From IMG/VR virus record IMGVR_UViG_3300016665_000824, positions 70,297 to 134,296 of that record: DNA of 64,000 nt; one strand, written 5' to 3'. Positions 2,635 to 61,440 of the stretch are shown piece by piece (the first letter of the stretch is position 1; every line of letters starts with the position of its first letter). The notes beneath the pieces were generated by a model. That model saw only the letters and a list, made by a program, of their open reading frames with translations, did no database searches and had not been told where the DNA came from. This DNA is from a virus. The position numbers were made by a program, and so were the translations under genes.

Positions 2635-3041
2635 ACCTCTACCGCCTTAACACCATAATCGAAACTGAGAAGCTTGATCAAAAAGCTTGGCAACTCATCT
2701 TCAAGTCTAGTAAATCCAGTCTCTGACTGCCCTTCAAGATACGTGTAAACGTAGTAGGGAGCTTCTTCTTGGAGTAAGAAATAAAATTGATATCCTTGAT
2801 GATCGTAAAAAACAATAGCTTCGTCAGGAAGTTCCTTTAAAAACCCATCCTCTTTGAGCAAAGATTTAAAAGCTGCTTTTACTTCGGAGCAAGAGTGAAC
2901 AAGCAGGGCTATCAACTTGTTGTTCTCGCCTAGTAGTAGTTCTGTACTCATAGACTGATGGAGTCGCTCAAACTCTTCGGTAGGAGCGTCGGAAAAATTT
3001 ATTCTTAGGAGATCCTGAACCTTATCGAAAACTATATACAT
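2631..3041 (-). CDS. hypothetical protein
   Basis: ORF 2631..3146; N-terminal 35 codons look non-coding (Arg/Gly-rich), so start moved to ATG at 3041 (MYIVFDK...). Confidence 0.4.
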   Translation of the reverse strand: MYIVFDKVQDLLRINFSDAPTEEFERLHQSMSTELLLGENNKLIALLVHSCSEVKAAFKSLLKEDGFLKELPDEAIVFYDHQGYQFYFLLQEEAPYYVYTYLEGQSETGFTRLEDELPSFLIKLLSFDYGVKAVEV

Positions 3042-3256
3042 TTTAATCCTAAATCCTTGGTGGCTTTGATAGCGTCCTTTTCTGAGTCGGCGGCGTACAG
3101 GCAAAACTTGTCGGCGATCGCCTGTACCTTCCATAGCCCTGCCCATCCCTGCTCGATCTCAACTGGTTCCTGTGTATTCACAATGTTGGTGGCACGAATC
3201 AAGGTGTTGCTGAGCAGGTGGGAGTTTTGAATATCTTCGAGTGTTAATTTTGCCAT
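3032..3256 (-). CDS. hypothetical small protein
   Basis: 74-aa ORF immediately downstream of putative portal gene; 10-nt overlap with next gene. Confidence 0.3.
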   Translation of the reverse strand: MAKLTLEDIQNSHLLSNTLIRATNIVNTQEPVEIEQGWAGLWKVQAIADKFCLYAADSEKDAIKATKDLGLKCI

Positions 3257-4912
3257 TTATTTGAGTCGTCCCTCAACCCACATCTTAGCAAAGGGAGAGT
3301 CCAAATCCTTAAACAACCGAGAAGCAATTTCTACAGCCGAAACGGAATCCTGTTTAACACCTTCTTCGGGAGGTGTATCTGCTTGACCCTGATCTGCACC
3401 TTGATCGCCAAAGTAGTCGCCACCTTGATCGCCGCCATATCCCTGTAGAGCTGCAAGCTCTTGTTGCTGCTTGGCTAATTCTTCATCCTGCTTCAGTTTT
3501 TCCCACGCTTCCTTATCGAGAGAGACCTCATAGGAGTACTCTGTTCCACCGTAGAGGCTAGCGCGAACTTCATCCTTAGTAATTGCTCCCGACTGGGTTT
3601 GCAGAGCGATAAGCATATTAGTGTGAGCAGTTTGGTTGGCTACTTCATCTTTGCGACTCTCTACATAGAGGGGTTTAAACTTATAAGACCATCCTTCAGG
3701 GATCTTACCCTTCGTAGGGCCATCTTGAGCGAGCCAAATATACTTGTAAAGCATATCCAACTTGCGGTGGCGATAATTCTGCTCTTGATAGGCAGCAACG
3801 GTCTTTGACCAAACCTGATCTTCGGTTTCTCCAGTACCACCTGCCGCTAACCCTTTTGGTCCACGCCCAAAGATCATTGTGTAAGGAATCCCCACCGCAG
3901 CAACCAAATCTTCTTGAAAGCTCGCTTTCATGTCGGACAAGCCTTGGTAGTTCCGCACTAGATAAGTAAGGTCATCTTCCGAGTCTACCGACACCGCCCC
4001 CAGCTTCCGCATCTGCATCTTCATGGCGCGAAACTGTTCTGAAAGAATGGTTAAAGCTTTTGGCACTCCATTGGTAGTGGCAGCTCCACCAGCAGCTTTT
4101 TCTTGGGCAAGATTTTGTTTGATCAGGTTTTGCAGGTTCTTCATCTTGTGGAGAAGAATCGTGTGATCTTGAATCATCTCCGCCATTGCGTCGGAGACTT
4201 TTGTGTAGCGAGCAATTTCTTTGAGTGCTGAGACGATTAGCGGATCGCCCCATCCACCCGTCGATCGCAACAATCTTGGAGGTAATCGAGAACCATCAAA
4301 TCGAATAATCCGCGATTTGTGAATTAAGTTGAACGAGGTGTAGTTTGAGCCTAACTTATCTATCTTGGATTTCGATTCTTGGGAGTAAAAGACCTGATAA
4401 AAGTCGGGGTCATCAGAGGGTGCATCAAGGTTTGGGAAATACGGGCGGATATCCTGCGGGTCAAGCTCGTAGATACCCTTGATGGTTTTAATTTTTGCCG
4501 TGTTAACTGGCTCGTTTGGGGGTAGCCCATCATCGATATTGACGAGAATAGCTGCGCCGCCATAAATATTCGCTAGCCAGTCAGCCTTATTAAATTTGTA
4601 TTTCGCTTCTATCCTTTCTTCGTACTGTTCAAAGGCTGTGGCAATCTTGCGATCAGTGTCCTTAACTAAGCTAATCTCAGTCCATTTTCTTGTTGCCTCG
4701 TCAGGAAACACCGAGACAATTTTCTTTCCTAGCCAGTCCCTAGATAGTTCTTCGAGGGCTTTGTAGCTTAGTCTGCGCCGATCGCCTGTGCTATTCATCC
4801 CCAGATCATTCTGAGCGAGCAGGTTGTTGTTGTACTCAGCCTCATAGAGCGCATCGATAATGGCTCCGTCTTGTCTCACATAGACTTCGGGATAATCTGT
4901 TTCTTTGGACAT
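3257..4912 (-). CDS. putative portal protein (large virion protein)
   Basis: 551 aa, acidic, C-terminal Gly/Asp/Gln-rich disordered tail, located in structural block; size and composition fit phage portals but no diagnostic motif verified. Confidence 0.4.
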   Translation of the reverse strand: MSKETDYPEVYVRQDGAIIDALYEAEYNNNLLAQNDLGMNSTGDRRRLSYKALEELSRDWLGKKIVSVFPDEATRKWTEISLVKDTDRKIATAFEQYEERIEAKYKFNKADWLANIYGGAAILVNIDDGLPPNEPVNTAKIKTIKGIYELDPQDIRPYFPNLDAPSDDPDFYQVFYSQESKSKIDKLGSNYTSFNLIHKSRIIRFDGSRLPPRLLRSTGGWGDPLIVSALKEIARYTKVSDAMAEMIQDHTILLHKMKNLQNLIKQNLAQEKAAGGAATTNGVPKALTILSEQFRAMKMQMRKLGAVSVDSEDDLTYLVRNYQGLSDMKASFQEDLVAAVGIPYTMIFGRGPKGLAAGGTGETEDQVWSKTVAAYQEQNYRHRKLDMLYKYIWLAQDGPTKGKIPEGWSYKFKPLYVESRKDEVANQTAHTNMLIALQTQSGAITKDEVRASLYGGTEYSYEVSLDKEAWEKLKQDEELAKQQQELAALQGYGGDQGGDYFGDQGADQGQADTPPEEGVKQDSVSAVEIASRLFKDLDSPFAKMWVEGRLK

Positions 4913-4961
4913 ATTCAGTGGCGATCGCGTATGTCCATCTGACAGGCGATCGCCACTGAAT
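4913..4961. repeat. perfect 16-bp inverted repeat (ATTCAGTG+HIP1 / HIP1+CACTGAAT) with 17-nt loop abutting the start codon of gene 3257..4912
   Basis: attcagtggcgatcgc ... gcgatcgccactgaat read directly from sequence. Confidence 0.6.
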
Positions 4962-4973
4962 CAGGAGTATTTG

Positions 4974-5013
4974 CTAAAAAAGCAAAACAGGACTGCGTTG
5001 GCAATCCTGTTTT
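4974..5013 (-). terminator. intrinsic terminator for minus-strand gene 5033..5767
   Basis: 9-bp perfect stem aaaacagga/tcctgtttt with 12-nt loop; on the minus strand it is followed by a U-run (plus-strand ctaaaaaag). Confidence 0.5.
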
Positions 5014-5032
5014 AGGTGATTCAGATCGGAAT

Positions 5033-5767
5033 CTATTCTGGGATGTCTATATCCCCAAGCGCTCTTATCTTCTCTCTAAACTCTATAAATGTCCTTACCA
5101 CGCCTATGTAGTCACTAAATCGAGTCTTAAGCTCAGAGACTTCTTTCTGGCTTAGCTGTAGAGACTCAATATAGTTTTGTTCTCGATCCTTGAGGTTCGC
5201 GTTCTCTTCCTTAAGATCCGCAATCTGTCTGCGTAGATCGGCGATCGCTATTAGGATCTGATCAATCTCCTCCTTTGTTATTGCGCTTGGAGGATCTTCA
5301 AACTCCCCATTCTGTAGGGCGATCGCGCCAATCTTCCGAATAGCTTCGCGGTACTGAAGTCTTTCTTTCTGGAGGTCGTAGGCACTTTTCTCGATCTTTG
5401 TATACTCTGCGTCAGTCACGTATGGAGGGGACTCCACTTCGACACACAGAAAGTTCGTGCCAATTCTTGCTAATCTATACCCAATCTCGGACTTAGCTCG
5501 ACGGATATGATTTATCTGGGATTCCAGCTTTGTATAGAACTCGTCGGTCTCAACGTCGGACGGAGAAAAACCTTCGTCTAGCAAGAGCCTGCCAAGATAA
5601 TCAATCTTTTTAGCGAATAGCTTCTTGGTTTCTACTGCTCGTTCGTAGTCTTCTAGCTGCTCAACATAGGTCTGTGCAAGCGTCTGAATACTCTCGTACT
5701 GCGATCGCGGAACGAACCACTTGGAAAGGATGTCGTTAATTAGATTCAAATCAATCCTCCAGCTCAT
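5033..5767 (-). CDS. hypothetical coiled-coil protein (possible scaffold/assembly protein)
   Basis: ORF 5033..5824; likely start at ATG 5767 (MSWRIDLN...); heptad-rich sequence. Confidence 0.4.
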   Translation of the reverse strand: MSWRIDLNLINDILSKWFVPRSQYESIQTLAQTYVEQLEDYERAVETKKLFAKKIDYLGRLLLDEGFSPSDVETDEFYTKLESQINHIRRAKSEIGYRLARIGTNFLCVEVESPPYVTDAEYTKIEKSAYDLQKERLQYREAIRKIGAIALQNGEFEDPPSAITKEEIDQILIAIADLRRQIADLKEENANLKDREQNYIESLQLSQKEVSELKTRFSDYIGVVRTFIEFREKIRALGDIDIPE

Positions 5768-6440
5768 CTGCGTCTGGGGGTGCGGGAGTGCTAACCACAG
5801 TAAGCCAATTAGCTTTTTGCTCAACTAAAGCCGCTTGATAGTCCTGCTCCTCAAGAGTGGAGAGATCGGGGCGCAACTCGGCTAGTTTTTCGTCAGGAAT
5901 GGCAATCAATTTTTCGGCAGTTTTGACTGCGGCGATTTCTTCGGGAGTTACTTGCTGCCCAGTGAGATCTTCTAGGGTTGGCGCTTCAGGAGTTTTTTCG
6001 CCGAAGCCTTTTTTCTTGCGAGATTTCTTTTCTGGTTGAGGCTCCTCCACTGCGGCTTCCGTATTTTGAGGTAACACCGCATTGATAAATTCAATCAGTT
6101 CAGTTGCACCCAAACTTGCTGGCAAGGTGGGGATTAGCTTTCTGAGATTATTCTCCAATGCTACGCGGGGATTCTTGGCGGGGTCTGGCTCGATTTCAGG
6201 GTCTAGGTTTAGAGAGAACAAGAAAGCCGAGTCGCGATCGCTAGATTGTGTTTCCACCATTAGATCCTGAAAGGCTTTTACGGGATCTTTGGTTGTTAGC
6301 GCCGACTCATAGGCTTTGGCGGACGAAATTTTTAAAAGCGACCAAATAATCTTGGTGGCAGGATCGATCGCGGCATCGCCAGAAACGAAGGGGTACTCAA
6401 CGCCGCGCACGGTGATAGTGTTACTCAACGAATTCTCCAT
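5751..6440 (-). CDS. hypothetical acidic protein
   Basis: 229-aa ORF, Glu/Pro-rich central region; tightly packed in structural block. Confidence 0.4.
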   Translation of the reverse strand: MENSLSNTITVRGVEYPFVSGDAAIDPATKIIWSLLKISSAKAYESALTTKDPVKAFQDLMVETQSSDRDSAFLFSLNLDPEIEPDPAKNPRVALENNLRKLIPTLPASLGATELIEFINAVLPQNTEAAVEEPQPEKKSRKKKGFGEKTPEAPTLEDLTGQQVTPEEIAAVKTAEKLIAIPDEKLAELRPDLSTLEEQDYQAALVEQKANWLTVVSTPAPPDADELED

Positions 6441-6951
6441 AAATATTTAGGTTTGACTGATATCGAAAAATCACGCCGAAGGGGATATCGACTATCCATG
6501 CAGGTGACTGCTCATACTGCGTCCTTATGGGCTGTCTTGGTACAGGGGTAATATCCCGTCCGTCCCATTCGACTCCTAAGAAGTTTTTGCTGGGGATTTT
6601 AAATCTGTTGTACTTCGCGATCGCGTGAGAGATGAACGCCAGTTCGACAGGAACTTTTTGTTTGTATTCAGTCTCGTTGGCATATCCTTTGATCGCCAAA
6701 ACCTCAATCCTTTGCATTCGATAAGCCCTGTTTGGGCTGTCGGGACGCTCAGAATCTTTGCCGTGGTCGCCAATTGAAGCTATGCCGACGGTCTCGCCTT
6801 CGATCACGTTGTAGTAATCCCCACTAGTGTCTAAGTGCAGCTCACTGATAATGTGTGCGACAAAGTGATTTATCGACTCGGTTATAAGCCCTTTGTAATA
6901 GTCTTCAAAGTTCATCGTGGCGATCGCAAAATATTGCCTTGATATTACCAC
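6421..6951 (-). CDS. hypothetical protein
   Basis: 176-aa ORF, overlaps downstream gene by 20 nt. Confidence 0.4.
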   Translation of the reverse strand: MVISRQYFAIATMNFEDYYKGLITESINHFVAHIISELHLDTSGDYYNVIEGETVGIASIGDHGKDSERPDSPNRAYRMQRIEVLAIKGYANETEYKQKVPVELAFISHAIAKYNRFKIPSKNFLGVEWDGRDITPVPRQPIRTQYEQSPAWIVDIPFGVIFRYQSNLNIYGEFVE

Positions 6952-7077
6952 AGAAATGCGTTATGGTTGTTATGCGATCGCCAAGTCTCAATTGGCAGGA
7001 AGAATGTCACTGGCGACAAACATAAGGATACGCGGCGAGATACTGGCGATCATCTTAAAAGAAATCGTAAAAACCAC

Positions 7078-7509
7078 ATGAAAGAACTTGAAAACAATAA
7101 AGATCTTGAATCTTTTCTAAAAGAGCTGCGAGAGCAGGCGGTTGCGGGTGACTTTGGTGTGGATGCTCTGCTTAACGAAGTAAGGAAAGCCGCAAAAAAG
7201 TGTGAAGAATTTAGGAATACAGAGTCTAGTCAGCCCAAGGATATTGAGTTTATTCAAGCTCTAATGCGATTTGCCGCTAACCAGCCCAGTCTTGCATTTC
7301 TAACCCCTTATTTTGGCAAACAAAAATCAGAAGAAGAAGTTCAGGCTATTTTTAAATCGTTGCTGCTTAGGGAGTTAGGAGAACTCAAACTCTCTGCTAA
7401 TCACCACAAAGCCAGTATTCAGTTCTATCAATATGAACTAAAAAGGAACGAGAGATATCGAGCAGACATAGAAGAAGCGATCTCCAGAAATTATCCAAAC
7501 CTAAAATAA
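7078..7509 (+). CDS. hypothetical protein
   Basis: ORF 6967..7509 begins at TTG; first ATG at 7078 (MKELENN...). Confidence 0.35.
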   Translation: MKELENNKDLESFLKELREQAVAGDFGVDALLNEVRKAAKKCEEFRNTESSQPKDIEFIQALMRFAANQPSLAFLTPYFGKQKSEEEVQAIFKSLLLRELGELKLSANHHKASIQFYQYELKRNERYRADIEEAISRNYPNLK

Positions 7510-7754
7510 TGAACTTGTATATTTCAATTCTGTCGTACCTATCCCTTGGAGTTGCCTATACTCTTCTGAGGTACAAATACCTTGAAGACAACTGTATTAG
7601 GGCTTTGCGAGACAATTTTTCTTATCTGGATTCACGAACTCAAAATCTTCTGCTAAAACAGGTTCTTTTCTCCGTCGTCTTGACTTATCCTCTGTTTATT
7701 CTTGGAGGCATTTGGGACTGGATATGCGATCGCTTTAATCCGCCCGAAGACTAA
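7509..7754 (+). CDS. small membrane protein
   Basis: 81 aa with two hydrophobic segments; ATG overlaps previous stop. Confidence 0.3.
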   Translation: MNLYISILSYLSLGVAYTLLRYKYLEDNCIRALRDNFSYLDSRTQNLLLKQVLFSVVLTYPLFILGGIWDWICDRFNPPED

Positions 7755-8485
7755 AACCCATCGGGGAAACAAACTCCCCGATCGCGCAGAATTCCCGCAA
7801 TATCATCCTTAACCCCTTCCCAGTATTCCCGATCAATCTTGCCGACTGCGACAGTCCGAGAAGTGGTCGGGAATTTTTGATCTTTCTCGGCATCTTTAGG
7901 ATCTCGCTGGAGGTTAGCAGCTTCCTCAAGAATATCCATGACCATGCCCATGCCAAAACTCTTAAGCACCGTATCGCCAGAGCCTTTGAAATTTAGATGT
8001 ACTGCGGCAATGATGCGAGCGTCCAAATTGCCTGTCGAGAGCGGTGCGGAAGGCTTGTCTTTGGACTGTTTGGGTTGACGACTTTGCTTGGCGGGATAGG
8101 TCAAACCCATCAACAATTGCAGTTGTGATAGACCAGGCATTTCCTGCTCGTAGCCAACGGGTTTAACTGGCTCGGTACAGAAGAAAAAGTTGTGGCGGGA
8201 CTTAGTGGTGAGATTGTCGATATTTAGGAGGCAGTCTGGCTGGGTGCGGCGAAATATCAGCGCGATCGCCTCTAAATGTTTGCGCGATCGATATACCAAG
8301 AACTGATGCACCGTAATTTCATCCTTTAATACTGCGTCGGGCGGATATACTGGTACACCCCTGATGAGTTCGAGCATGTCGTCGATAACAGGGATTAACT
8401 CGGAACGGGTATGAAAAGATGGTTCGCGAATAAATTCCCACGACTCGTCTTCATAGTTAATTTTCTGAGGATAAATTAAGGGCAC
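7751..8485 (-). CDS. hypothetical protein (structural block)
   Basis: 244-aa ORF. Confidence 0.4.
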   Translation of the reverse strand: MPLIYPQKINYEDESWEFIREPSFHTRSELIPVIDDMLELIRGVPVYPPDAVLKDEITVHQFLVYRSRKHLEAIALIFRRTQPDCLLNIDNLTTKSRHNFFFCTEPVKPVGYEQEMPGLSQLQLLMGLTYPAKQSRQPKQSKDKPSAPLSTGNLDARIIAAVHLNFKGSGDTVLKSFGMGMVMDILEEAANLQRDPKDAEKDQKFPTTSRTVAVGKIDREYWEGVKDDIAGILRDRGVCFPDGF

Positions 8486-11299: not shown

Positions 11300-11755
11300 A
11301 TGTCTAACTCTAGTTCTGCCACAAAATTGGCGATCGCAAGATTAAAAGGATCTGACCTGCCTATTTTTGTTCCAGTTTCAGTCTCTGAGAAAGTCGCAAC
11401 CCTAGTCAGGGAGTGTATTTTACAGTCCGACAGTTTAAAGATATTAAAAGTTACTACTACAGTTTACAACGAGCTTACTAAGCATTTAAAGCAGTACGAA
11501 AAGCCAAAATATACCATTCCTCAGTATCTTTTGATGCTCCTATATACGGTTTCTACTACTTCAGAATTGATCGAAAAACACAACAAGGGTTTAATTTCAG
11601 ATGACGAGTTTATTAACTGTATCAAAAACAACAAAAACGCAAACGGGACTAAAACCTCCCGCAAAATGGGTCGGAAGAAAGCAAGCGTTGATGCCAGCGA
11701 TCGCGCAGTACTTCCCCGCGAGGTTCACAAAAGAACCAGTTCCAAGGTTTCTTGA
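11300..11755 (+). CDS. hypothetical protein (3' end uncertain; overlaps MTase gene in another frame)
   Basis: 151-aa ORF; last ~40 codons look non-coding and overlap the Dam-like ORF. Confidence 0.3.
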   Translation: MSNSSSATKLAIARLKGSDLPIFVPVSVSEKVATLVRECILQSDSLKILKVTTTVYNELTKHLKQYEKPKYTIPQYLLMLLYTVSTTSELIEKHNKGLISDDEFINCIKNNKNANGTKTSRKMGRKKASVDASDRAVLPREVHKRTSSKVS

Positions 11756-12518
11756 TTTCAAAAAGGGTGTCGGCAATTTCCACGACCCTTTCGTTGGTAC
11801 TGGTAGTGCATTTTTGTATTTTGCGGATGGATTTCGAGGCGATCGCAAGATTTTTATTAGTGACAGTAATCCTGAACTCATTAATATTTGGCTGTGCATT
11901 CAAGCCGATCCTCTAAGGCTTTTAAGATCCTTGCTTGAATACAAGCGCCCTGTATTTAACAGCGCCGAATCGTACTATCACGAAAGGCAGATCTTCAATC
12001 AGCAGTTTAAAGGTTCTTACGACTACGAGCTAGCAGCAAGAATGATCTACTTAATTCAGGCTGGTTTCAATAGCCTATGGAGGGTTAACAGCGACGGTGA
12101 AATGAACACGCCTTTTGGCTCTCAGAAGCAAATTGCCCTTCTTACCGAGAATGATTTGACCGCGCTTTCGGTTCTCCTTCAAAAAGCGACAATCAAACAT
12201 CAGCCTTTTGAAGAGTCGCTAAAAGATGTACAACCCAATGATGTCGTCTATCTCGACCCGCCATACATTGAAGTCAAAAAGAATTCCTTCAATAAATACA
12301 CCACAAAAGGTTTTAGCAGAGAGCAGCAGATACTCCTCCGCCAAGAAGCCGATCGCCTGCACGATCTAGGCGCTTATGTATACGCCAGTAATAGCGATAC
12401 CCCCTTGAGTCGCGAAATTTGGTCGGGCTGGAAAATCGCAGAACTGACGAGATCGGGCTGCATGAACTCAGATGCAACCAAGCGTCAACGGGTTGGAGAG
12501 TTGTTATTTTATAAATAA
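11601..12518 (+). CDS. N6-adenine DNA methyltransferase, Dam family (D12 class)
   Basis: KWVGRK (cf. KWAGGK), FVGTGSAF SAM-binding motif, and DPPY catalytic motif (VVYLDPPYIE) in the translation. Confidence 0.8.
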   Translation: MTSLLTVSKTTKTQTGLKPPAKWVGRKQALMPAIAQYFPARFTKEPVPRFLDFKKGVGNFHDPFVGTGSAFLYFADGFRGDRKIFISDSNPELINIWLCIQADPLRLLRSLLEYKRPVFNSAESYYHERQIFNQQFKGSYDYELAARMIYLIQAGFNSLWRVNSDGEMNTPFGSQKQIALLTENDLTALSVLLQKATIKHQPFEESLKDVQPNDVVYLDPPYIEVKKNSFNKYTTKGFSREQQILLRQEADRLHDLGAYVYASNSDTPLSREIWSGWKIAELTRSGCMNSDATKRQRVGELLFYK

Positions 12519-13605: not shown

Positions 13606-13934
13606 TTAAGAAGCGTCCAGCGATCGGGCGGCTAGTAAGGTTGCCAAGTAAAATCGTCACTGTTGTGGGGTATAAGGATGGGGTTTTTCTAGTCCGCGTC
13701 GGCACGGGAAAGACTCAGAAAATCACGGAATCGTTTCTTATGGCGCACGGCGTTCTTGTCGAGAAGGAGTGGCGCGAGGAGAAGAAGTCTGCACCCAAAC
13801 AGGAATACGTGAACCGAGAGTTTAAACGCTTCTTTGAGGAGCGAGCCGAAAGGGACTACCAAGAAAAAGTTCTTAAGGGCTTTAAGATTGAGGATGAAGT
13901 TATCGAAGGATTTGAGGCGATCGCGGAGGAATAA
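13602..13934 (+). CDS. hypothetical protein
   Basis: 110-aa Lys/Glu-rich ORF; ends in ...AIAEE with junction motif GCGATCGCGGAGGAATAAATG. Confidence 0.4.
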   Translation: MIKKRPAIGRLVRLPSKIVTVVGYKDGVFLVRVGTGKTQKITESFLMAHGVLVEKEWREEKKSAPKQEYVNREFKRFFEERAERDYQEKVLKGFKIEDEVIEGFEAIAEE

Positions 13935-14141
13935 ATGGATATCGAAGAACTTGTTGCCGCAGCATCCGTAAGTCGGCATATATATCTTGAGCGCGTCGGC
14001 AAAGGTAGGCTACCAAAAGGATTTCCCTGTGGTGAGCTAATGTGCGTTAATTCGGACGGCAACCGAACTTATTTATTTGATTCGGCGAAAGTCTTAAAGT
14101 GGTGTCGAAAGCAAAATAATCAGGCGATCGCGGAGGAATAA
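13935..14141 (+). CDS. hypothetical protein
   Basis: 68-aa ORF; ends ...AIAEE with same junction motif. Confidence 0.35.
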   Translation: MDIEELVAAASVSRHIYLERVGKGRLPKGFPCGELMCVNSDGNRTYLFDSAKVLKWCRKQNNQAIAEE

Positions 14142-14407
14142 TGCGAAAAATAGACAAGGACTACAGTTTTACAGAACGAGAGATTCAGGCGTTAATGTTG
14201 ATATGCACTATTGGACGAGAAGACTGGCTCACTAAAGAGGTGAAGGAGATATTGTCGCAATACATAAGCAGAAAGATGTATCACAGGACTGCTTCTCAAG
14301 TCTTTGCTCACAGAAAAAGAGTTCTGGGTTCTTTCCCTAGCAATGCGGGTAAATACTTACTTGAAAGGCGAACTAGCTTTATTGAGCGATCGCGGAGGAG
14401 TGAGTAA
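14141..14407 (+). CDS. hypothetical protein
   Basis: 88-aa ORF; ends ...RSRRSE within a third copy of GCGATCGCGGAGGA. Confidence 0.35.
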   Translation: MRKIDKDYSFTEREIQALMLICTIGREDWLTKEVKEILSQYISRKMYHRTASQVFAHRKRVLGSFPSNAGKYLLERRTSFIERSRRSE

Positions 14408-14578: not shown

Positions 14579-16336
14579 CTAGCTAGCGATCGCCATTAAT
14601 TTAGTCAACCCAGCCTTCCGCAACATCTCTTGCTGGAGCTTGGTTTGAAAATATGGCTTATCCTCAGCACTTGCTACTCGATACAGTTCCAGCCAGTATT
14701 TCTCCCGCTTCTCGCAGTGTATATGCTGAATCTTGGCGATCGCACGGTCAACCACTGCCTTGACATCGCCAGCGATCGCCTCTTGCATTGCGTAAGGTAT
14801 GTCCGAAAAGTCATCGTTCAGGAATTTATCCCACAGCGCACAGTGATCGTCATGGGCAAATTCGATCTCTTGAAGCAGGATATACCCCCGCAAATCGGGA
14901 TGATGGACAAAGGCTTTTAGTATCTGCATTTCGGCTAGTTGCAGAGCAGTATAACTGGGTTTTGCGGCAACCTGTGGTGATTCAGATCGGAATACCGATC
15001 GCGCAAGTCGATGTAAATCCTCCTCAATGCGTACGGCAAGGCGAGCATTTCCCTGAGCTAACTTCTGAGCACACTTATGGGTATAGTGGCTACGTCGGGC
15101 ATCCATCGGCAATGGGGCGAGTATTTGCGCGATCGCTTGATTAGCTCGCTGGAAGTCGGCAGAATTGTTAAGGTCTTTGCCCTTAATCTCAAGGTCAATT
15201 AACCAGTCAAGGTATAGCGGCGCTTCGCGGAGCAGCGATAAGTACGCTTCAGAACCATAAGTGGTTAGGTACTCGTCGGCATCTTTTTTGCCCTCAATGG
15301 TTAGTATCCGTAGATTTACCGTACCATCCAGAACTAGCTCTAGGACTTGACTTACGGCTTTTTTAGTTGCCGTAACACCTGCTTTGTCCGAGTCGAAGTT
15401 GCAAACTATACGCTTCGACTCAGTATGGCGTAAAACCTGTTTAATTTGAGCGGCGCTAAGCGCTGTGCCCATTGAGCCGACTGCATGGGTAATTCCATTT
15501 TGGTGCAGGGAAATCACGTCGAGGTGTCCTTCGACAATTACCGCCTCGTCGTTCTTGGCGATCGCCTCACAAGCTTTGTCTAGTCCAAACAGTAGTTCAC
15601 CCTTTTTGAACAACTCGGTTTCGGGCGAGTTGATATACTTTGCGCCGTCGTCCTCACCGCTTAGCGATCGCGCAGAAAATCCAACCACGCGACCACGGAT
15701 ATCGGCGATCGGGATAATCAGGCGATCGCGAAATCGGTCATAGTAGCCTTCGTTTTCTTTGCGAGGTATCGCCAACCCCAATTCTTCAAGAGTTTGAACG
15801 GGGATATTTAACTCGGCAAGGTTACTCCACCCCGCAGGCGCGTAACCGAGCTTGAACTTATTGCAGGTATCTCTGGTGATTTTGCGTTTTTCTAAGTAGG
15901 CAAGGGCTTTGGTGTTGAGCTGTTGCTGGTAGTAACGAGTGACTTTAGCTATTTGATCGAAGAGGTATTCCCTGTGCGATCGCTCCTTAACGATTTGCTC
16001 GGCATGTTCTGGCTCTTCGGTTCTTACTTCAACCCCGTAACGACCAGCCAAATCTAGTACGGCATCTGGGAACGATTTATGACCAATCTCCATCATAAAC
16101 TTGATCGCACCACCCGACGCACCGCAGTTATGGCAGTAATACATGCCTTTGCTGGGGTCTACCGAGAGGGCGCTGGGATTCGTGCCGTTGTGAAATGGGC
16201 AAGCGCCACGAAATGAGTGACCCGACCGCTTAAGTACGACGTTTTCGCTAACGACATCAACGATGTCGGCTTTGTCGTTTACTGCGGCGATCGTATCAGC
16301 ATGGATTCGGAATGATTTAGGTTTGGCGGATTGCAT
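14579..16336 (-). CDS. dnaG: DNA primase DnaG
   Basis: CHC2 zinc finger (CPFHNGTNPSALSV...YYCHNCGASGGAIKF) and TOPRIM-like EGHLDVISL segment. Confidence 0.85.
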   Translation of the reverse strand: MQSAKPKSFRIHADTIAAVNDKADIVDVVSENVVLKRSGHSFRGACPFHNGTNPSALSVDPSKGMYYCHNCGASGGAIKFMMEIGHKSFPDAVLDLAGRYGVEVRTEEPEHAEQIVKERSHREYLFDQIAKVTRYYQQQLNTKALAYLEKRKITRDTCNKFKLGYAPAGWSNLAELNIPVQTLEELGLAIPRKENEGYYDRFRDRLIIPIADIRGRVVGFSARSLSGEDDGAKYINSPETELFKKGELLFGLDKACEAIAKNDEAVIVEGHLDVISLHQNGITHAVGSMGTALSAAQIKQVLRHTESKRIVCNFDSDKAGVTATKKAVSQVLELVLDGTVNLRILTIEGKKDADEYLTTYGSEAYLSLLREAPLYLDWLIDLEIKGKDLNNSADFQRANQAIAQILAPLPMDARRSHYTHKCAQKLAQGNARLAVRIEEDLHRLARSVFRSESPQVAAKPSYTALQLAEMQILKAFVHHPDLRGYILLQEIEFAHDDHCALWDKFLNDDFSDIPYAMQEAIAGDVKAVVDRAIAKIQHIHCEKREKYWLELYRVASAEDKPYFQTKLQQEMLRKAGLTKLMAIAS

Positions 16337-28105: not shown

Positions 28106-28331
28106 CCCAGCAGGACATTATCCTAGACAAGATGCGTCGGAAGCAATCGGAATTTGAAGACTACTACGTTTTTAGCACTCACGACATAGTGACCCTATGT
28201 GAGGACAGTCATCTGGACTGGGACTTGGCTTTTGACCAGCTAATAGCTTTAAACAAGAGGAATCTAGTTGCTATAAATCCGACATATTGCGATCGCACAG
28301 GCAAATTTATCGGATTGTTGTGGGGTTTAAA

Positions 28332-29276
28332 ATGAGTAAAACCGTAGCCACGATGTATTCTGGCTTTGGCGGAGTTGATCAGGGTTTCGTTTTGGCAGGG
28401 TATACGCCAGTCTTTGCGATCGATAACAATCCTGATGCAGTAGCGGTTTATATCGAGAATTTTGGCAACCACTGTCTAGAGAAGGACGTTTGTGAGTTTG
28501 ATTATTCAAGAGTTAAAGCAGATCACCTCCATGCTTCTCCAAGCTGCAAAGAGTTTAGTAGCGCCAATCACCGTAGTAGCGAAACCGATCTCGATATTCG
28601 ATGCGCCCAAGCTACGGTTAAGGCGATCGCACAGATAAACCCTCAAACATTTTCCCTCGAAAATGTAAAGCAGTACGCTAAGTCTAAGTCTTTTGATTTG
28701 ATTAGGCGATCGCTACGAGAAATGGGCTACGCCTGCAACGTAACCGTAGTCAACGCGAAGGATTTCGGTGTATCCCAATCACGAGAAAGGCTAATTCTTC
28801 GAGCATGGGTTAAATCCCGCAAACGCCCTAGACCTTTGGCGTTGTACAAACAGTGTTTAACAATGGGGTGGCATGACGCGATCGCCGATTTAATCCCCAC
28901 TCTCAAACCACAACCATTGAATAATTGGCAGCTAGCCTCTCTTGAGGAGCAGGGTATAGACCCCACCAACCTAACTGCACTGGTTAGCAAAGATGGGTCT
29001 CGCAAGAAAAAAGGCTTTAAAAATACTTTTGCCTTGGTAATCCCCTCGTCCAAGCCTTGCCCAACCCTCAAGGCAATGGGGCATAATCAGCACTGTCAGC
29101 AGTATTCGATTGTGGTTAACGGTGTTGGTTATCGGATTTCTACCGAGGCGATCGCGAGACTAATGAGCTTTCCCGACTCATTCAAATTCTCAGGAGTGAA
29201 TTATAAAGACTGTATGGGTTTAGGTAATGCAGTACCGCCATTATTGGTAAGAGCGATCGCGGAAAGTTTTGCTTAA
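28332..29276 (+). CDS. DNA (cytosine-5)-methyltransferase
   Basis: Motif I YSGFGG, motif IV PSCKEFS (Pro-Cys catalytic dipeptide), ENV, QSRER, GNAV; start at ATG 28332. Confidence 0.8.
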   Translation: MSKTVATMYSGFGGVDQGFVLAGYTPVFAIDNNPDAVAVYIENFGNHCLEKDVCEFDYSRVKADHLHASPSCKEFSSANHRSSETDLDIRCAQATVKAIAQINPQTFSLENVKQYAKSKSFDLIRRSLREMGYACNVTVVNAKDFGVSQSRERLILRAWVKSRKRPRPLALYKQCLTMGWHDAIADLIPTLKPQPLNNWQLASLEEQGIDPTNLTALVSKDGSRKKKGFKNTFALVIPSSKPCPTLKAMGHNQHCQQYSIVVNGVGYRISTEAIARLMSFPDSFKFSGVNYKDCMGLGNAVPPLLVRAIAESFA

Positions 29277-61050: not shown

Positions 61051-61250
61051 AAATATTAAAAAGCGATCGCCAATAGGCTATGTGATTTTTACGATTCTAA
61101 ACTTGATATCTCGATATGTCCGACGCAAAGATGACAGCTCCACCTTGGCTTCTTTCTTGTCGTACTGATACTTATTTTGTCTAACCCATACGTTAGGCTG
61201 CTCAAACTTTGTTACTAACTTTTCAATTGCGTACATCGTTGTAACTGGTT

Positions 61251-61440
61251 TAAAAAGCGATCGCTATCCTGAAGAGAGGTGGATAGGCGATCGCAAAATG
61301 TACATCATGAAAAATCCTCTCCCCACAATCTTAACTTGGATTCGCATTAAAAAGCGATCGCTATCCTGAAGAGAGGTGGACAGGCGATCGCTAAAATGAT
61401 TATCTAACATGACCTCTCCCCACAATTTTAACTTGATTTT
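61251..61440. repeat. two tandem ~97-bp repeats, each with a pair of HIP1 sites
   Basis: taaaaagcgatcgctatcctgaagagaggtgga(t/c)aggcgatcgc ... cctctccccacaat(c/t)ttaacttg at 61251 and 61348; ORF-free region upstream of the par operon. Confidence 0.6.

What the first reader, a model, noticed from the sequence alone, without database searches (positions are those of the whole stretch)
4913..4961. HIP1-based 16-bp perfect palindrome abutting the putative portal start codon
ATTCAGTG-GCGATCGC ... GCGATCGC-CACTGAAT forms a 16-bp inverted repeat ending one nucleotide before the portal ATG (minus strand). As RNA it would sequester the ribosome-binding region; as DNA it is a candidate protein-binding site. 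HIP1 is here part of a larger designed-looking structure.
Basis: seen in the sequence. Interest (0 to 1): 0.4.

Follow-up and report, generated by a model that had tools for sequence, protein, structure and literature searches.

The report
Conserved HIP1 hairpin before phage portal gene
Two copies of the cyanobacterial HIP1 octamer form a very stable stem-loop right against the start codon of a cyanophage portal gene; related phages keep it, so it is probably a small expression-control element, but its function is untested.

Summary
ATTCAGTGGCGATCGC (4913-4928) and its reverse complement (4946-4961) are a perfect 16-nt inverted repeat with a 17-nt spacer. It abuts the ATG (4912-4910, minus strand) of a 551-aa Phage_portal_3 protein. 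The window is a cyanophage genome with 186 HIP1 sites. Only this one of 36 nearby HIP1 pairs has extended flank complementarity (8/8; null maximum 5).

All 12 other distinct portal leaders examined, down to 45% protein identity, have HIP1 or a one-base variant 6-9 nt before the ATG. Eleven also keep the partner HIP1. The stem beyond HIP1 varies. It is perfect here and has two G.U pairs in the 96% relatives. In an 80% relative it is a re-written 22-bp stem that includes the AUG. Elsewhere it is short or absent. The leader runs palindromic motif, intrinsic terminator, hairpin, ATG, and is as conserved as the coding sequence.

The most likely reading is an RNA stem-loop in the portal leader that occludes an SD-less initiation region. 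Evidence for RNA over DNA is modest. A second HIP1-pair cassette that brackets a promoter keeps a DNA-level role possible. Interest is moderate, and it is a new member of a known kind.

The parts
4946..4961 (-). 5' arm of the hairpin in the portal-sense RNA: AUUCAGUG plus HIP1 (GCGAUCGC)
   Evidence: The flank is homologous in relatives (ATTnAGGTA consensus).
4929..4945 (-). 17-nt loop CUGUCAGAUGGACAUAC. It has a conserved UGUCAGAU(G/A)G core and a small inner 4-bp helix (UGUC/GACA).
   Evidence: TGTCAGAT is invariant in 8 distinct near-group sequences. The inner helix is 93.8% paired in sense and 46.9% in antisense.
4913..4928 (-). 3' arm: HIP1 plus CACUGAAU, ending at position -1 of the portal start codon
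   Evidence: It carries two C-to-T changes (G.U in sense RNA) in L003, L004, L005, L007 and L012.
3257..4912 (-). Portal protein gene (551 aa), ATG at 4912-4910. The CDS contains no HIP1.
   Evidence: PF06381 at E 1.5e-57 and phrog_146. N-terminus conserved. HIP1 positions.
4973..5014 (-). Intrinsic-terminator-like hairpin (stem 5014-4983) with T-run CTTTTTTAGC, 11 nt upstream of the HIP1 hairpin
   Evidence: 14 pairs, loop of 4, T tail; fold. The stem covaries in L006, L019 and L026.
5020..5031 (-). GATC-centred 12-nt palindrome TTCCGATCTGAA, directly after the upstream gene's stop codon. It marks the start of the conserved portal module.
   Evidence: Seven copies with at most 1 mismatch in the window against 0.2 expected. 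Present at about -119 in all near-group relatives. The homology block begins here.
5033..5749 (-). Upstream gene (238 aa as called on the source contig), coiled-coil, unknown function. Its 3' part is not homologous between relatives.
   Evidence: gene calls; only coiled-coil-type Pfam hits below threshold.
6913..6981 (-). Second HIP1-pair cassette: HIP1 (6981-6974), 46 nt containing an extended -10-like TGGTAATAT (6950-6942), HIP1 (6927-6920), CACG, then the ATG (6915-6913) of a 164-aa gene that heads the operon leading to portal
   Evidence: (I17). The TGnTA(A/G)TAT element and the ATG-proximal HIP1 are conserved in L005, L025, L006 and L024. L024 lacks the distal HIP1.

Best explanation
The element is a cis-acting RNA stem-loop in the 5' leader of the portal mRNA, built from two HIP1 octamers.

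The leader reads, in the portal sense: palindromic motif, intrinsic terminator, about 20 nt, hairpin, AUG. Transcripts that reach the portal gene carry a hairpin whose 3' arm occupies the stretch just upstream of the AUG, where the 30S subunit must bind. This gene has no Shine-Dalgarno sequence. With the upstream terminator, the hairpin would keep portal synthesis low, or make it depend on an opening step. That step could be nuclease processing, a helicase or ribosome, or a factor that reads the conserved loop UGUCAGAU(G/A)G.

Shown here: the structure, its unusual stability, its position, its conservation, and its single-copy status.

Inferred: that it acts as RNA, that it lowers or gates translation, and what would relieve it.
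For: - Predicted sense RNA fold is -33.9 kcal/mol, z -7.0. It is the most structured of 110 gene starts.
- The stem ends at -1 of a start codon fixed by N-terminal conservation.
- All 13 distinct portal leaders, at 96% to 45% protein identity, fold a HIP1:HIP1 hairpin 6-9 nt or less from the AUG.
- In L006 the outer stem is re-written: C-G to U-A, G-C to A-U, and one inserted G-C pair. It grows to a perfect 22 bp that includes the AUG. L003 shows the G.U intermediate at one of these pairs.
- One-sided changes mostly keep pairing only in the sense strand. Examples are L003 (two G.U), L022 (two G.U) and GUGAUCGC in L025 and L027.
- The sense fold is more stable than the antisense fold in 7 of 8 near-group sequences.
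- Cells paired are 92.9% in sense and 78.6% in antisense.
- The covariance model scores 82 bits in sense and 19.6 in antisense.
- The loop core is invariant.
- The leader is as conserved as the CDS and travels with the portal module.
- Spacers of 17-32 nt make cruciform extrusion in duplex DNA unlikely (established knowledge).
Against: - The 8-bp HIP1 core never varies, so it gives no covariation signal. Shuffle controls are not significant.
- The strand asymmetry comes almost entirely from a weak 4-bp inner helix. It is absent in the far group.
- The outer extension is weak or missing in L019, L022, L024, L025 and L026.
- HIP1 sites are generally conserved between cyanobacterial genomes for unknown DNA-level reasons (PMC5861425).
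- A hairpin this stable should nearly abolish translation of an essential protein, so a relief step must be assumed.
- No transcription start is known. In the far group a sigma70-like promoter (TTGACA-N16-GACATT) would start transcription inside the first HIP1 and truncate the stem.
- In the window's second cassette a promoter-like element lies between the two HIP1s, so no RNA hairpin would form there.
Confidence: 0.42

Rival explanations
1. DNA-level element. The HIP1 pair itself is the functional unit and brackets the gene start or promoter. It would be read by a HIP1/GATC-specific factor or by methylation state, acting on transcription initiation or promoter-proximal RNAP pausing. The extra stem bases are incidental.
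For: - The HIP1 octamers are nearly invariant while their flanks drift.
- A second conserved cassette in the window places an extended -10-like TGGTAATAT between two HIP1s, with the proximal HIP1 4 nt before the ATG.
- Far-group phages carry the cassette twice, each after TTGACA-N16-GACATT.
- A GATC-centred palindrome recurs 7 times and sits in the same leader.
- The phage encodes a C5 methylase and a second methyltransferase.
- The literature reports RNAP ChIP peaks in the 5' parts of transcripts enriched at HIP1 (PMC3219970), and a disputed claim that Sll1130 binds HIP1 (PMC6331805).
Against: - HIP1 is not enriched near gene starts in general (46 observed within +/-60 nt against about 44 expected).
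- Centre-to-centre spacing of the two HIP1s is inconsistent between cassettes (25, 39-41 and 54-55 bp), so no common helical phasing.
- L024 lacks the distal HIP1 of the second cassette, and L013 has a decayed distal HIP1.
- This reading does not explain the perfect 8-14 bp outer extensions or the sense-strand wobble bias.
- Published work found no gene-level role for HIP1 (PMC5861425, PMC6331805).
Confidence: 0.22
2. 5'-terminal mRNA stabiliser or processing element. The hairpin lies at or near the 5' end of the portal mRNA, either after initiation just upstream or after endonucleolytic cleavage in the U/A-rich spacer. It protects the mRNA from 5'-end-dependent decay, as the ompA 5' stem-loop does. 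Alternatively it is an RNase III-type processing site.
For: - In the far group the predicted start of transcription falls in the first HIP1. That would give a 5'-terminal stem of about 7 bp (inference).
- In the near group a terminator and an A/U-rich spacer precede the hairpin.
- The stems in the window (16 bp) and L006 (22 bp) are long enough for RNase III-type enzymes.
Against: - No 5' ends are known.
- A pure stabiliser should not pair with the start codon, as it does in L006, or abut it.
- Stem length is not conserved (8-22 bp), which fits an RNase III site poorly.
Confidence: 0.15
3. No specific function. Two HIP1 sites persist in this leader because of the genome-wide force that maintains HIP1. 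The long perfect arms arose by an inverted duplication or template-switch 'palindrome correction' in some lineages and are decaying in others.
For: - HIP1 sites are broadly position-conserved in these phages and in cyanobacteria (PMC5861425).
- The extension is perfect in two lineages and poor in five.
- Perfect 16-22-bp stems without any wobble are more typical of recent copying than of long-term RNA selection.
- The covariation statistics are not significant.
- Quasipalindrome correction is an established mutational mechanism.
Against: - No general tendency for HIP1 pairs to gain complementary flanks: 35 of 36 pairs are at the null level.
- The pair is the only HIP1 feature shared by near and far groups at 45% portal identity, although the upstream genes differ.
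- The loop core is invariant and the leader is as conserved as the coding sequence.
- The position relative to the ATG is fixed.
Confidence: 0.15

Closest known systems
Initiation-region-sequestering leader hairpins of phage genes (T4 lysozyme gene e and soc early transcripts; MS2/Qbeta replicase operator hairpin; lambda N leader processed by RNase III). Recalled from established literature, not tested here.
   Same: A stable stem-loop abuts or includes the start codon of a phage gene. The stem sequence can change while pairing is kept. The loop sequence is conserved. The implied consequence is that translation needs an alternative transcript, processing, or a bound factor.
   Different: No relieving promoter, nuclease site or binding protein has been identified. 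There is no SD in the stem. The stem core is a host-type hyperabundant octamer that is invariant rather than covarying. Function is untested.
HIP1 (Highly Iterated Palindrome 1, GCGATCGC) of cyanobacteria
   Same: Exact octamer, present at host-like density in the phage (1 per 344 bp). Site positions are conserved between relatives, as reported for cyanobacterial genomes (PMC5861425).
   Different: Published analyses found no gene-level, RNA-motif or promoter-linked role for HIP1 (PMC5861425, PMC6331805). Here a specific pair sits at a fixed distance from a start codon, with extended pairing and a conserved loop.
5'-terminal stabilising stem-loops (ompA-type)
   Same: A stable hairpin in the leader close to the coding start. 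In the far group it is possibly at the very 5' end of the transcript.
   Different: The 5' end is unknown. The hairpin touches the start codon, which ompA-type stabilisers do not.
Intrinsic terminators and REP/MITE-like palindromic repeats
   Same: A G+C-rich inverted repeat in an intergenic region, next to a true terminator-like hairpin.
   Different: The loop is 17 nt with no U-tract after the stem, and the element is single-copy in 64 kb.

Membership tests
HIP1 element | Exact octamer GCGATCGC, strongly over-represented in the genome | tested here: met
   Two exact copies at 4921-4928 and 4946-4953. There are 186 in the window against 1.1 expected.
Initiation-region-sequestering leader hairpin / translational operator | A stable stem-loop overlaps or abuts the start codon or ribosome-binding region on the sense strand | tested here: met
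   The stem covers -49 to -1 at -33.9 kcal/mol. It is the most structured of 110 gene starts. The AUG is inside the stem in L006.
Initiation-region-sequestering leader hairpin / translational operator | The structure is conserved in relatives, with compensatory or wobble changes | tested here: inconclusive
   The HIP1:HIP1 hairpin is present in 13 of 13 distinct leaders. The outer stem is compensated between the window and L006, with G.U pairs in L003 and L022. The core is invariant and shuffle controls are not significant.
Initiation-region-sequestering leader hairpin / translational operator | The hairpin is part of the mRNA and changes translation; a relief mechanism exists | not testable with these tools
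   This needs 5'-end mapping, reporter mutagenesis and structure probing.
Intrinsic (Rho-independent) terminator | G+C-rich stem, short loop (3-8 nt), followed by a U-tract | tested here: not met
   The loop is 17 nt and the stem is followed by AUAUGUCC. The scan does not call it. It calls the neighbouring hairpin at 5014-4983 instead.
Dispersed palindromic repeat (REP/MITE-like) | Many similar copies dispersed in the genome | tested here: not met
   No other copy of the 16-mer with fewer than 2 mismatches. The loop motif is unique. The next-best covariance-model hit is 27.7 bits against 82.3.
RNase III processing site (T7 R1.1 / lambda N-leader type) | A roughly 20-bp or longer dsRNA helix, conserved in relatives | tested here: inconclusive
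   16 bp here and 22 bp in L006, but only 8-11 bp in the other relatives. Cleavage cannot be tested.
CRISPR repeat mimic / solitary repeat unit | Full-length similarity to a host CRISPR repeat including its Cas6 hairpin, conserved among related phages | tested here: not met
   The 3' arm matches 13 of 16 positions of the 3' part of the Synechocystis I-D repeat (PMC3575380, Table 1). The arms are inverted rather than direct, the repeat's own hairpin is absent, and the ACUGAA part is not conserved in relatives.
Any curated RNA family (Rfam 15) | Match at or near the gathering score | tested here: not met
   Only chance-level hits (17 bits or less, E above 2) in 4700-5300.
Symmetric DNA operator (dimeric protein site) | Half-site sequence conserved between relatives that share the binding protein | tested here: inconclusive
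   The HIP1 halves are conserved, but the 8-nt outer halves change in sequence. No binding protein is known.

The most novel reading that the evidence does not exclude
In this cyanophage family, HIP1 may be a working part of reusable 'gene-start cassettes'. Each cassette has a distal HIP1, a promoter or leader, and a proximal HIP1 4-16 nt before the ATG. It occurs twice per genome in both the near and the far group. The paired octamers would act as a switch, either as an RNA hairpin or as a methylation- or factor-dependent DNA bracket, that sets expression of the portal operon. If so, it would be a first gene-level function for HIP1. It would also show a phage co-opting its host's genomic signature for regulation.
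Probability: 0.12. Interest if true: 0.7.

Novelty: new member of a known kind. Interest (0 to 1): 0.4.

Why it matters
Portal protein is needed in only about 12 copies per virion. How tailed phages hold its expression down is known for only a few model phages, so this is a concrete, conserved and easily mutated candidate control element in an uncultured freshwater cyanophage lineage.

It is also one of the few places where HIP1, whose function has been debated for 30 years, sits at a fixed, conserved position relative to a gene start with extended base-pairing. Swapping the octamers while keeping the pairing would separate 'structure matters' from 'HIP1 sequence matters'.

If it proves to be only a by-product of HIP1 abundance, the finding is ordinary.

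Tried and rejected
1. Mini-ORF coupling. The loop ATG (MDIRDRH*, stop 2 nt before the portal ATG) is ATA in L024, L025 and L026. It is in frame in L006 and out of frame elsewhere. Rejected.
2. Split-SD (T4 gene 38-like) arrangement. There is no SD upstream of the hairpin; the sequence there is CUCCU. Rejected.
3. HIP1 as an SD surrogate pairing with 16S GAUCAC. GUGAUCGC variants in L025 and L027 would improve the pairing. The spacing to the AUG equals an 11-16-nt SD spacer, which is too long. Kept only as a low-probability idea.
4. Sigma70 promoter inside or around the portal hairpin. None was called. Candidate hexamers are not conserved, or they would place the transcription start inside the CDS.
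5. Attenuator-type alternative pairing between the terminator and the HIP1 arm. It gives 7 bp in the window but is not conserved in L006.
6. Long-range pairing of loop UCAGAU with AUCUGA in the upstream palindrome. It gives 6 bp in the near group with no counterpart in the far group. Unsupported.
7. pac/cos site. The TerL-like gene is about 35 kb away.
8. CRISPR-repeat mimic. See the membership test.
9. MITE or REP. The element is single-copy.
10. A general 'HIP1 pairs grow complementary flanks' process. Not seen.
11. Searches that gave nothing useful:
   - blastn of 3000-8000 against GenBank phages;
   - GTDB genome scans, which returned only one Pseudanabaena contig;
   - a loose DNA pattern scan of IMG/VR that returned about 120 unrelated loci;
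   - the far-cassette pattern scan, which gave only the known contig;
   - literature searches for HIP1 hairpins in phages.

Full report
OBSERVATION

The plus strand at 4913-4961 reads ATTCAGTGGCGATCGC, then gtatgtccatctgacag, then GCGATCGCCACTGAAT. The repeat finder lists it as a 16-nt, 100% complementary inverted repeat with a 17-nt spacer (I8). The adjacent CAT at 4910-4912 is the ATG of a 551-aa minus-strand ORF. That ORF is a portal protein: PF06381 at E 1.5e-57 and phrog_146 at E 1.2e-74. Homologues from 96% to 45% identity all start within one or two residues of M-x-E-T...E..R.DG.IIDALY, so this ATG is the real start. The hairpin therefore ends at position -1.

CONTEXT

The window is a phage genome. 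It is densely packed with small genes and encodes:
- a primase;
- a DnaB helicase;
- a beta clamp;
- a TerL-like protein about 35 kb from the portal gene;
- a C5 cytosine methylase and a second methyltransferase;
- a tail-fibre-like protein.

It has no nucleotide-level relative among GenBank phages. The source is a 134-kb metagenome contig. HIP1 occurs 186 times against 1.1 expected, a host-like density of one per 344 bp.

On the portal-sense strand the 120-nt intergenic leader reads as follows:
- the stop codon of a coiled-coil gene;
- TTCCGATCTGAA;
- a terminator-like hairpin (5014-4983) with a T-run;
- AGCAAAUACUCCUG;
- the HIP1 hairpin;
- the AUG.

There is no Shine-Dalgarno sequence. That is not unusual here, because only 22 of 96 crude gene calls have one.

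IS IT MORE THAN CHANCE?

With this HIP1 density, any two neighbouring copies give an 8-bp stem. There are 36 pairs within 100 nt of each other. Their flanks are no more complementary than those of random HIP1 pairs (mean 2.3 against 2.1 matches out of 8). The exception is this pair, at 8 of 8. None of 5000 random pairs exceeded a run of 5.

The 16-mer and the loop motif are unique in the window. A covariance model built from relatives scores this site at 82 bits, and the next window hit, another HIP1 pair, at 27.7 bits. The sense RNA folds at -33.9 kcal/mol with z -7.0. Among 110 gene starts, the portal 5' region is the most structured (mean -10.9, sd 5.5). No Rfam family matches.

RELATIVES

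I collected portal loci from IMG/VR, JGI, ENA, Logan and one Pseudanabaena assembly. This gave 13 distinct leader sequences.

The near group (84-96% portal identity, plus L006 at 80%) has this layout:
- HIP1;
- a 17-nt loop, YTGTCAGATRGnnnnAC;
- HIP1;
- 7-9 nt;
- ATG.

The far group (45-52%) has this layout:
- HIP1;
- 30-32 nt containing CATCAAAGT...TAAAY;
- HIP1;
- 6-7 nt;
- ATG.

Single-base variants occur: ACGATCGC in L019, and GTGATCGC in L025, L034 and L027. L013 has a decayed distal copy. All 13 fold a HIP1:HIP1 hairpin.

Cultured cyanophages with portals at about 30% identity (vB_AphaS-CL131, PaV-LD, S-CBS4) have no such pair.

The homology block shared with every near-group relative starts exactly at the upstream stop codon and palindromic motif. 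The leader is as conserved at the nucleotide level as the portal CDS. The leader therefore belongs to the portal module and is under constraint.

WHAT VARIES

The stem outside HIP1 varies between lineages.
- The window has 8 perfect extra pairs.
- The 96% relatives carry two C-to-U changes in the 3' arm. Both give G.U pairs in the sense RNA and A.C mismatches in the antisense.
- L006 has ATTTAGGTA/TACCTAAAT in place of ATTCAGTG/CACTGAAT. That means C-G to U-A, G-C to A-U, and an inserted G-C pair. Its helix continues through the AUG to a perfect 22 bp at -42.4 kcal/mol.
- L003's G.U lies at one of the pairs that differs between the window and L006, as a wobble intermediate would.
- L022 has a 3-bp extension with two G.U pairs.
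- L019 has an interrupted extension.
- L024, L025 and L026 have little or none.

RNAalifold's consensus is HIP1 plus 2 bp, together with a 4-bp inner helix.

RNA OR DNA?

For RNA in the portal sense:
- The fold is more stable in sense than in antisense in 7 of 8 near-group sequences, for example -29.1 against -22.6 in L003 and -19.5 against -14.6 in L025.
- 92.9% of cells are paired in sense and 78.6% in antisense.
- Spacers of 17-32 nt disfavour cruciform extrusion.
- The outer arm sequences change while pairing is kept, which is not what a protein half-site does.

Against, or limiting:
- The asymmetry comes almost wholly from the small inner helix (93.8% against 46.9%).
- The far group shows no such bias.
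- The HIP1 core is invariant, so shuffle controls show no significant covariation.
- HIP1 sites are in general conserved for unknown, probably DNA-level, reasons (PMC5861425).

A SECOND KIND OF EVIDENCE CUTS THE OTHER WAY

The covariance model found a second cassette in far-group phages, just upstream of the gene that precedes portal (L030 778-858 and L031 1052-1132). Both far-group cassettes follow a sigma70-like TTGACA-N16-GACATT. That promoter would start transcription inside the first HIP1.

The window itself has a second conserved HIP1-pair cassette at 6981-6913(-). It reads HIP1, 46 nt containing the extended -10-like TGGTAATAT, HIP1, CACG, ATG. The ATG belongs to the first gene of the operon that leads to portal. 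There, only the proximal HIP1 would be in the mRNA. One relative (L024) lacks the distal copy. So 'a HIP1 a few bases before the ATG, with a partner upstream' recurs, and it is not always compatible with an RNA hairpin. HIP1 is not generally enriched at gene starts.

MECHANISM

I commit to the RNA reading for the portal element. I see it as a leader stem-loop that occludes an SD-less initiation region and, together with the upstream terminator, throttles or gates portal synthesis.

A hairpin of -30 kcal/mol or stronger against the AUG should be very inhibitory. Some relief is therefore implied, such as processing, a factor that recognises the invariant loop, or transcription starting within the element.

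I give three rivals:
- a DNA-level HIP1 bracket;
- a 5'-terminal stabiliser or processing site;
- a functionless by-product of HIP1 maintenance plus palindrome correction.

None is excluded. My probabilities are 0.42 for the main reading, then 0.22, 0.15 and 0.15 for the rivals.

COMPARISON WITH KNOWN SYSTEMS

It works most like the initiation-region-sequestering hairpins of phage genes. Examples are T4 e and soc early transcripts, the MS2 replicase operator and the lambda N leader. The relieving component that defines each of those systems is unknown here.

It is not:
- an intrinsic terminator (17-nt loop, no U-tract);
- a REP or MITE (single copy);
- an Rfam family;
- a CRISPR-repeat mimic. 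The 3' arm matches 13 of 16 positions of the Synechocystis I-D repeat 3' part (PMC3575380), which looks coincidental because relatives do not share it.

I found no report of HIP1-pair hairpins as leader structures. Published work found no RNA-level or promoter-level role for HIP1 (PMC5861425, PMC6331805). One study saw RNAP ChIP peaks at HIP1 in the 5' parts of transcripts (PMC3219970).

VERDICT

This is a real, statistically exceptional, conserved, single-copy structured leader element at the portal start. It is a new member of a known kind, and interest is moderate (0.4). There is a small chance (about 0.12) that it shows a genuine gene-level use of HIP1.

Noticed in passing
window 5020, 14981, 26057, 26798, 42815, 54843, 59756 (12 nt each): A GATC-centred 12-nt palindrome TTCAGATCTGAA occurs 7 times with at most 1 mismatch, against 0.2 expected (maximum 2 in 200 shuffles). 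It has a directional extension GATCTGAAyyACCACAA. Most copies lie just after a stop codon or before the next gene, in the gene's orientation. One copy heads the portal leader in all near-group relatives and marks the exact start of inter-phage homology. It is a candidate operator, promoter element or module-boundary sequence. The hairpin loop contains the half-site GTCAGAT, and the window's arms ATTCAGT/ACTGAAT match the half-sites at 6 of 7 positions.
   Followed up: partly
window 6913-6981 (minus strand): A second conserved HIP1-pair cassette: HIP1, 46 nt with an extended -10-like TGGTAATAT, HIP1, CACG, then the ATG of a 164-aa gene in a 15-nt divergent intergenic region. It is conserved in L005, L006 and L025. 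L024 lacks the distal HIP1.
   Followed up: partly
L030 778-858 and 1431-1506; L031 1052-1132 and 1430-1506; L161 5048-5120 and 5701-5767: Far-group phages carry two copies of a cassette: TTGACA-N16-GACATT-N-HIP1-N31-33-HIP1-N6-9-ATG. One sits before a 100-193-aa gene and one before portal. Only these two copies occur in 17.5 kb of L161.
   Followed up: partly
window 3257-4912: The 1.65-kb portal CDS contains no HIP1, although the genome average is one per 344 bp (Poisson P about 0.008). The same holds in nearly all near-group relatives. Far-group portals have conserved HIP1 sites at about +404 and about +1300.
   Followed up: no
whole window; 28287-29276(+) and 11601-12518(+): The phage genome has host-like HIP1 density (186 in 64 kb). 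It encodes a C5 cytosine methylase (PF00145, E 1e-39) and a second methyltransferase (phrog_56). These may modify the CGATCG and GATC cores of HIP1.
   Followed up: no
window 5033-5749 versus relatives (L001 about 2200-2877): The 3' half of the coiled-coil gene upstream of portal is not homologous between otherwise closely related phages, even where portal is 96% identical. This suggests a hypervariable or swapped module ending exactly at the stop codon.
   Followed up: partly
window 4913-4928: The 3' arm GCGATCGCCACTGAAT matches 13 of 16 positions of the 3' part of the Synechocystis I-D CRISPR1 repeat (GCGATCGGGACTGAAAC; PMC3575380). Relatives do not share the match, so it is probably coincidence.
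   Followed up: yes
window 13910-13937 and 14117-14143: Two adjacent small genes (68 and 88 aa) are each preceded by the same string GGCGATCGCGGAGGAATAA(A)TG, that is, HIP1 fused to a strong SD.
   Followed up: no
window 61250-61400: Two HIP1 pairs, each spaced 30 nt, repeat at a 97-nt interval with near-identical flanks (aaaaaGCGATCGCtatcctga ... gtggaYagGCGATCGC). This looks like a tandem duplication spanning two 52-53-aa ORFs.
   Followed up: no
L013 about 486-570: Another extended HIP1-based inverted repeat (CCATAGCGATCGCT / AGCGATCGCTATGG, 14 bp perfect, about 60-nt spacer) lies upstream of the far-group portal leader in L013. There the leader's own distal HIP1 has decayed.
   Followed up: no
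window 14981-14992, inside the primase gene 14579-16336(-): One copy of the palindromic motif lies inside the primase ORF after its last Pfam domain. An ATG follows about 55 nt downstream, which might be an internal start. The reading frame was not checked.
   Followed up: no
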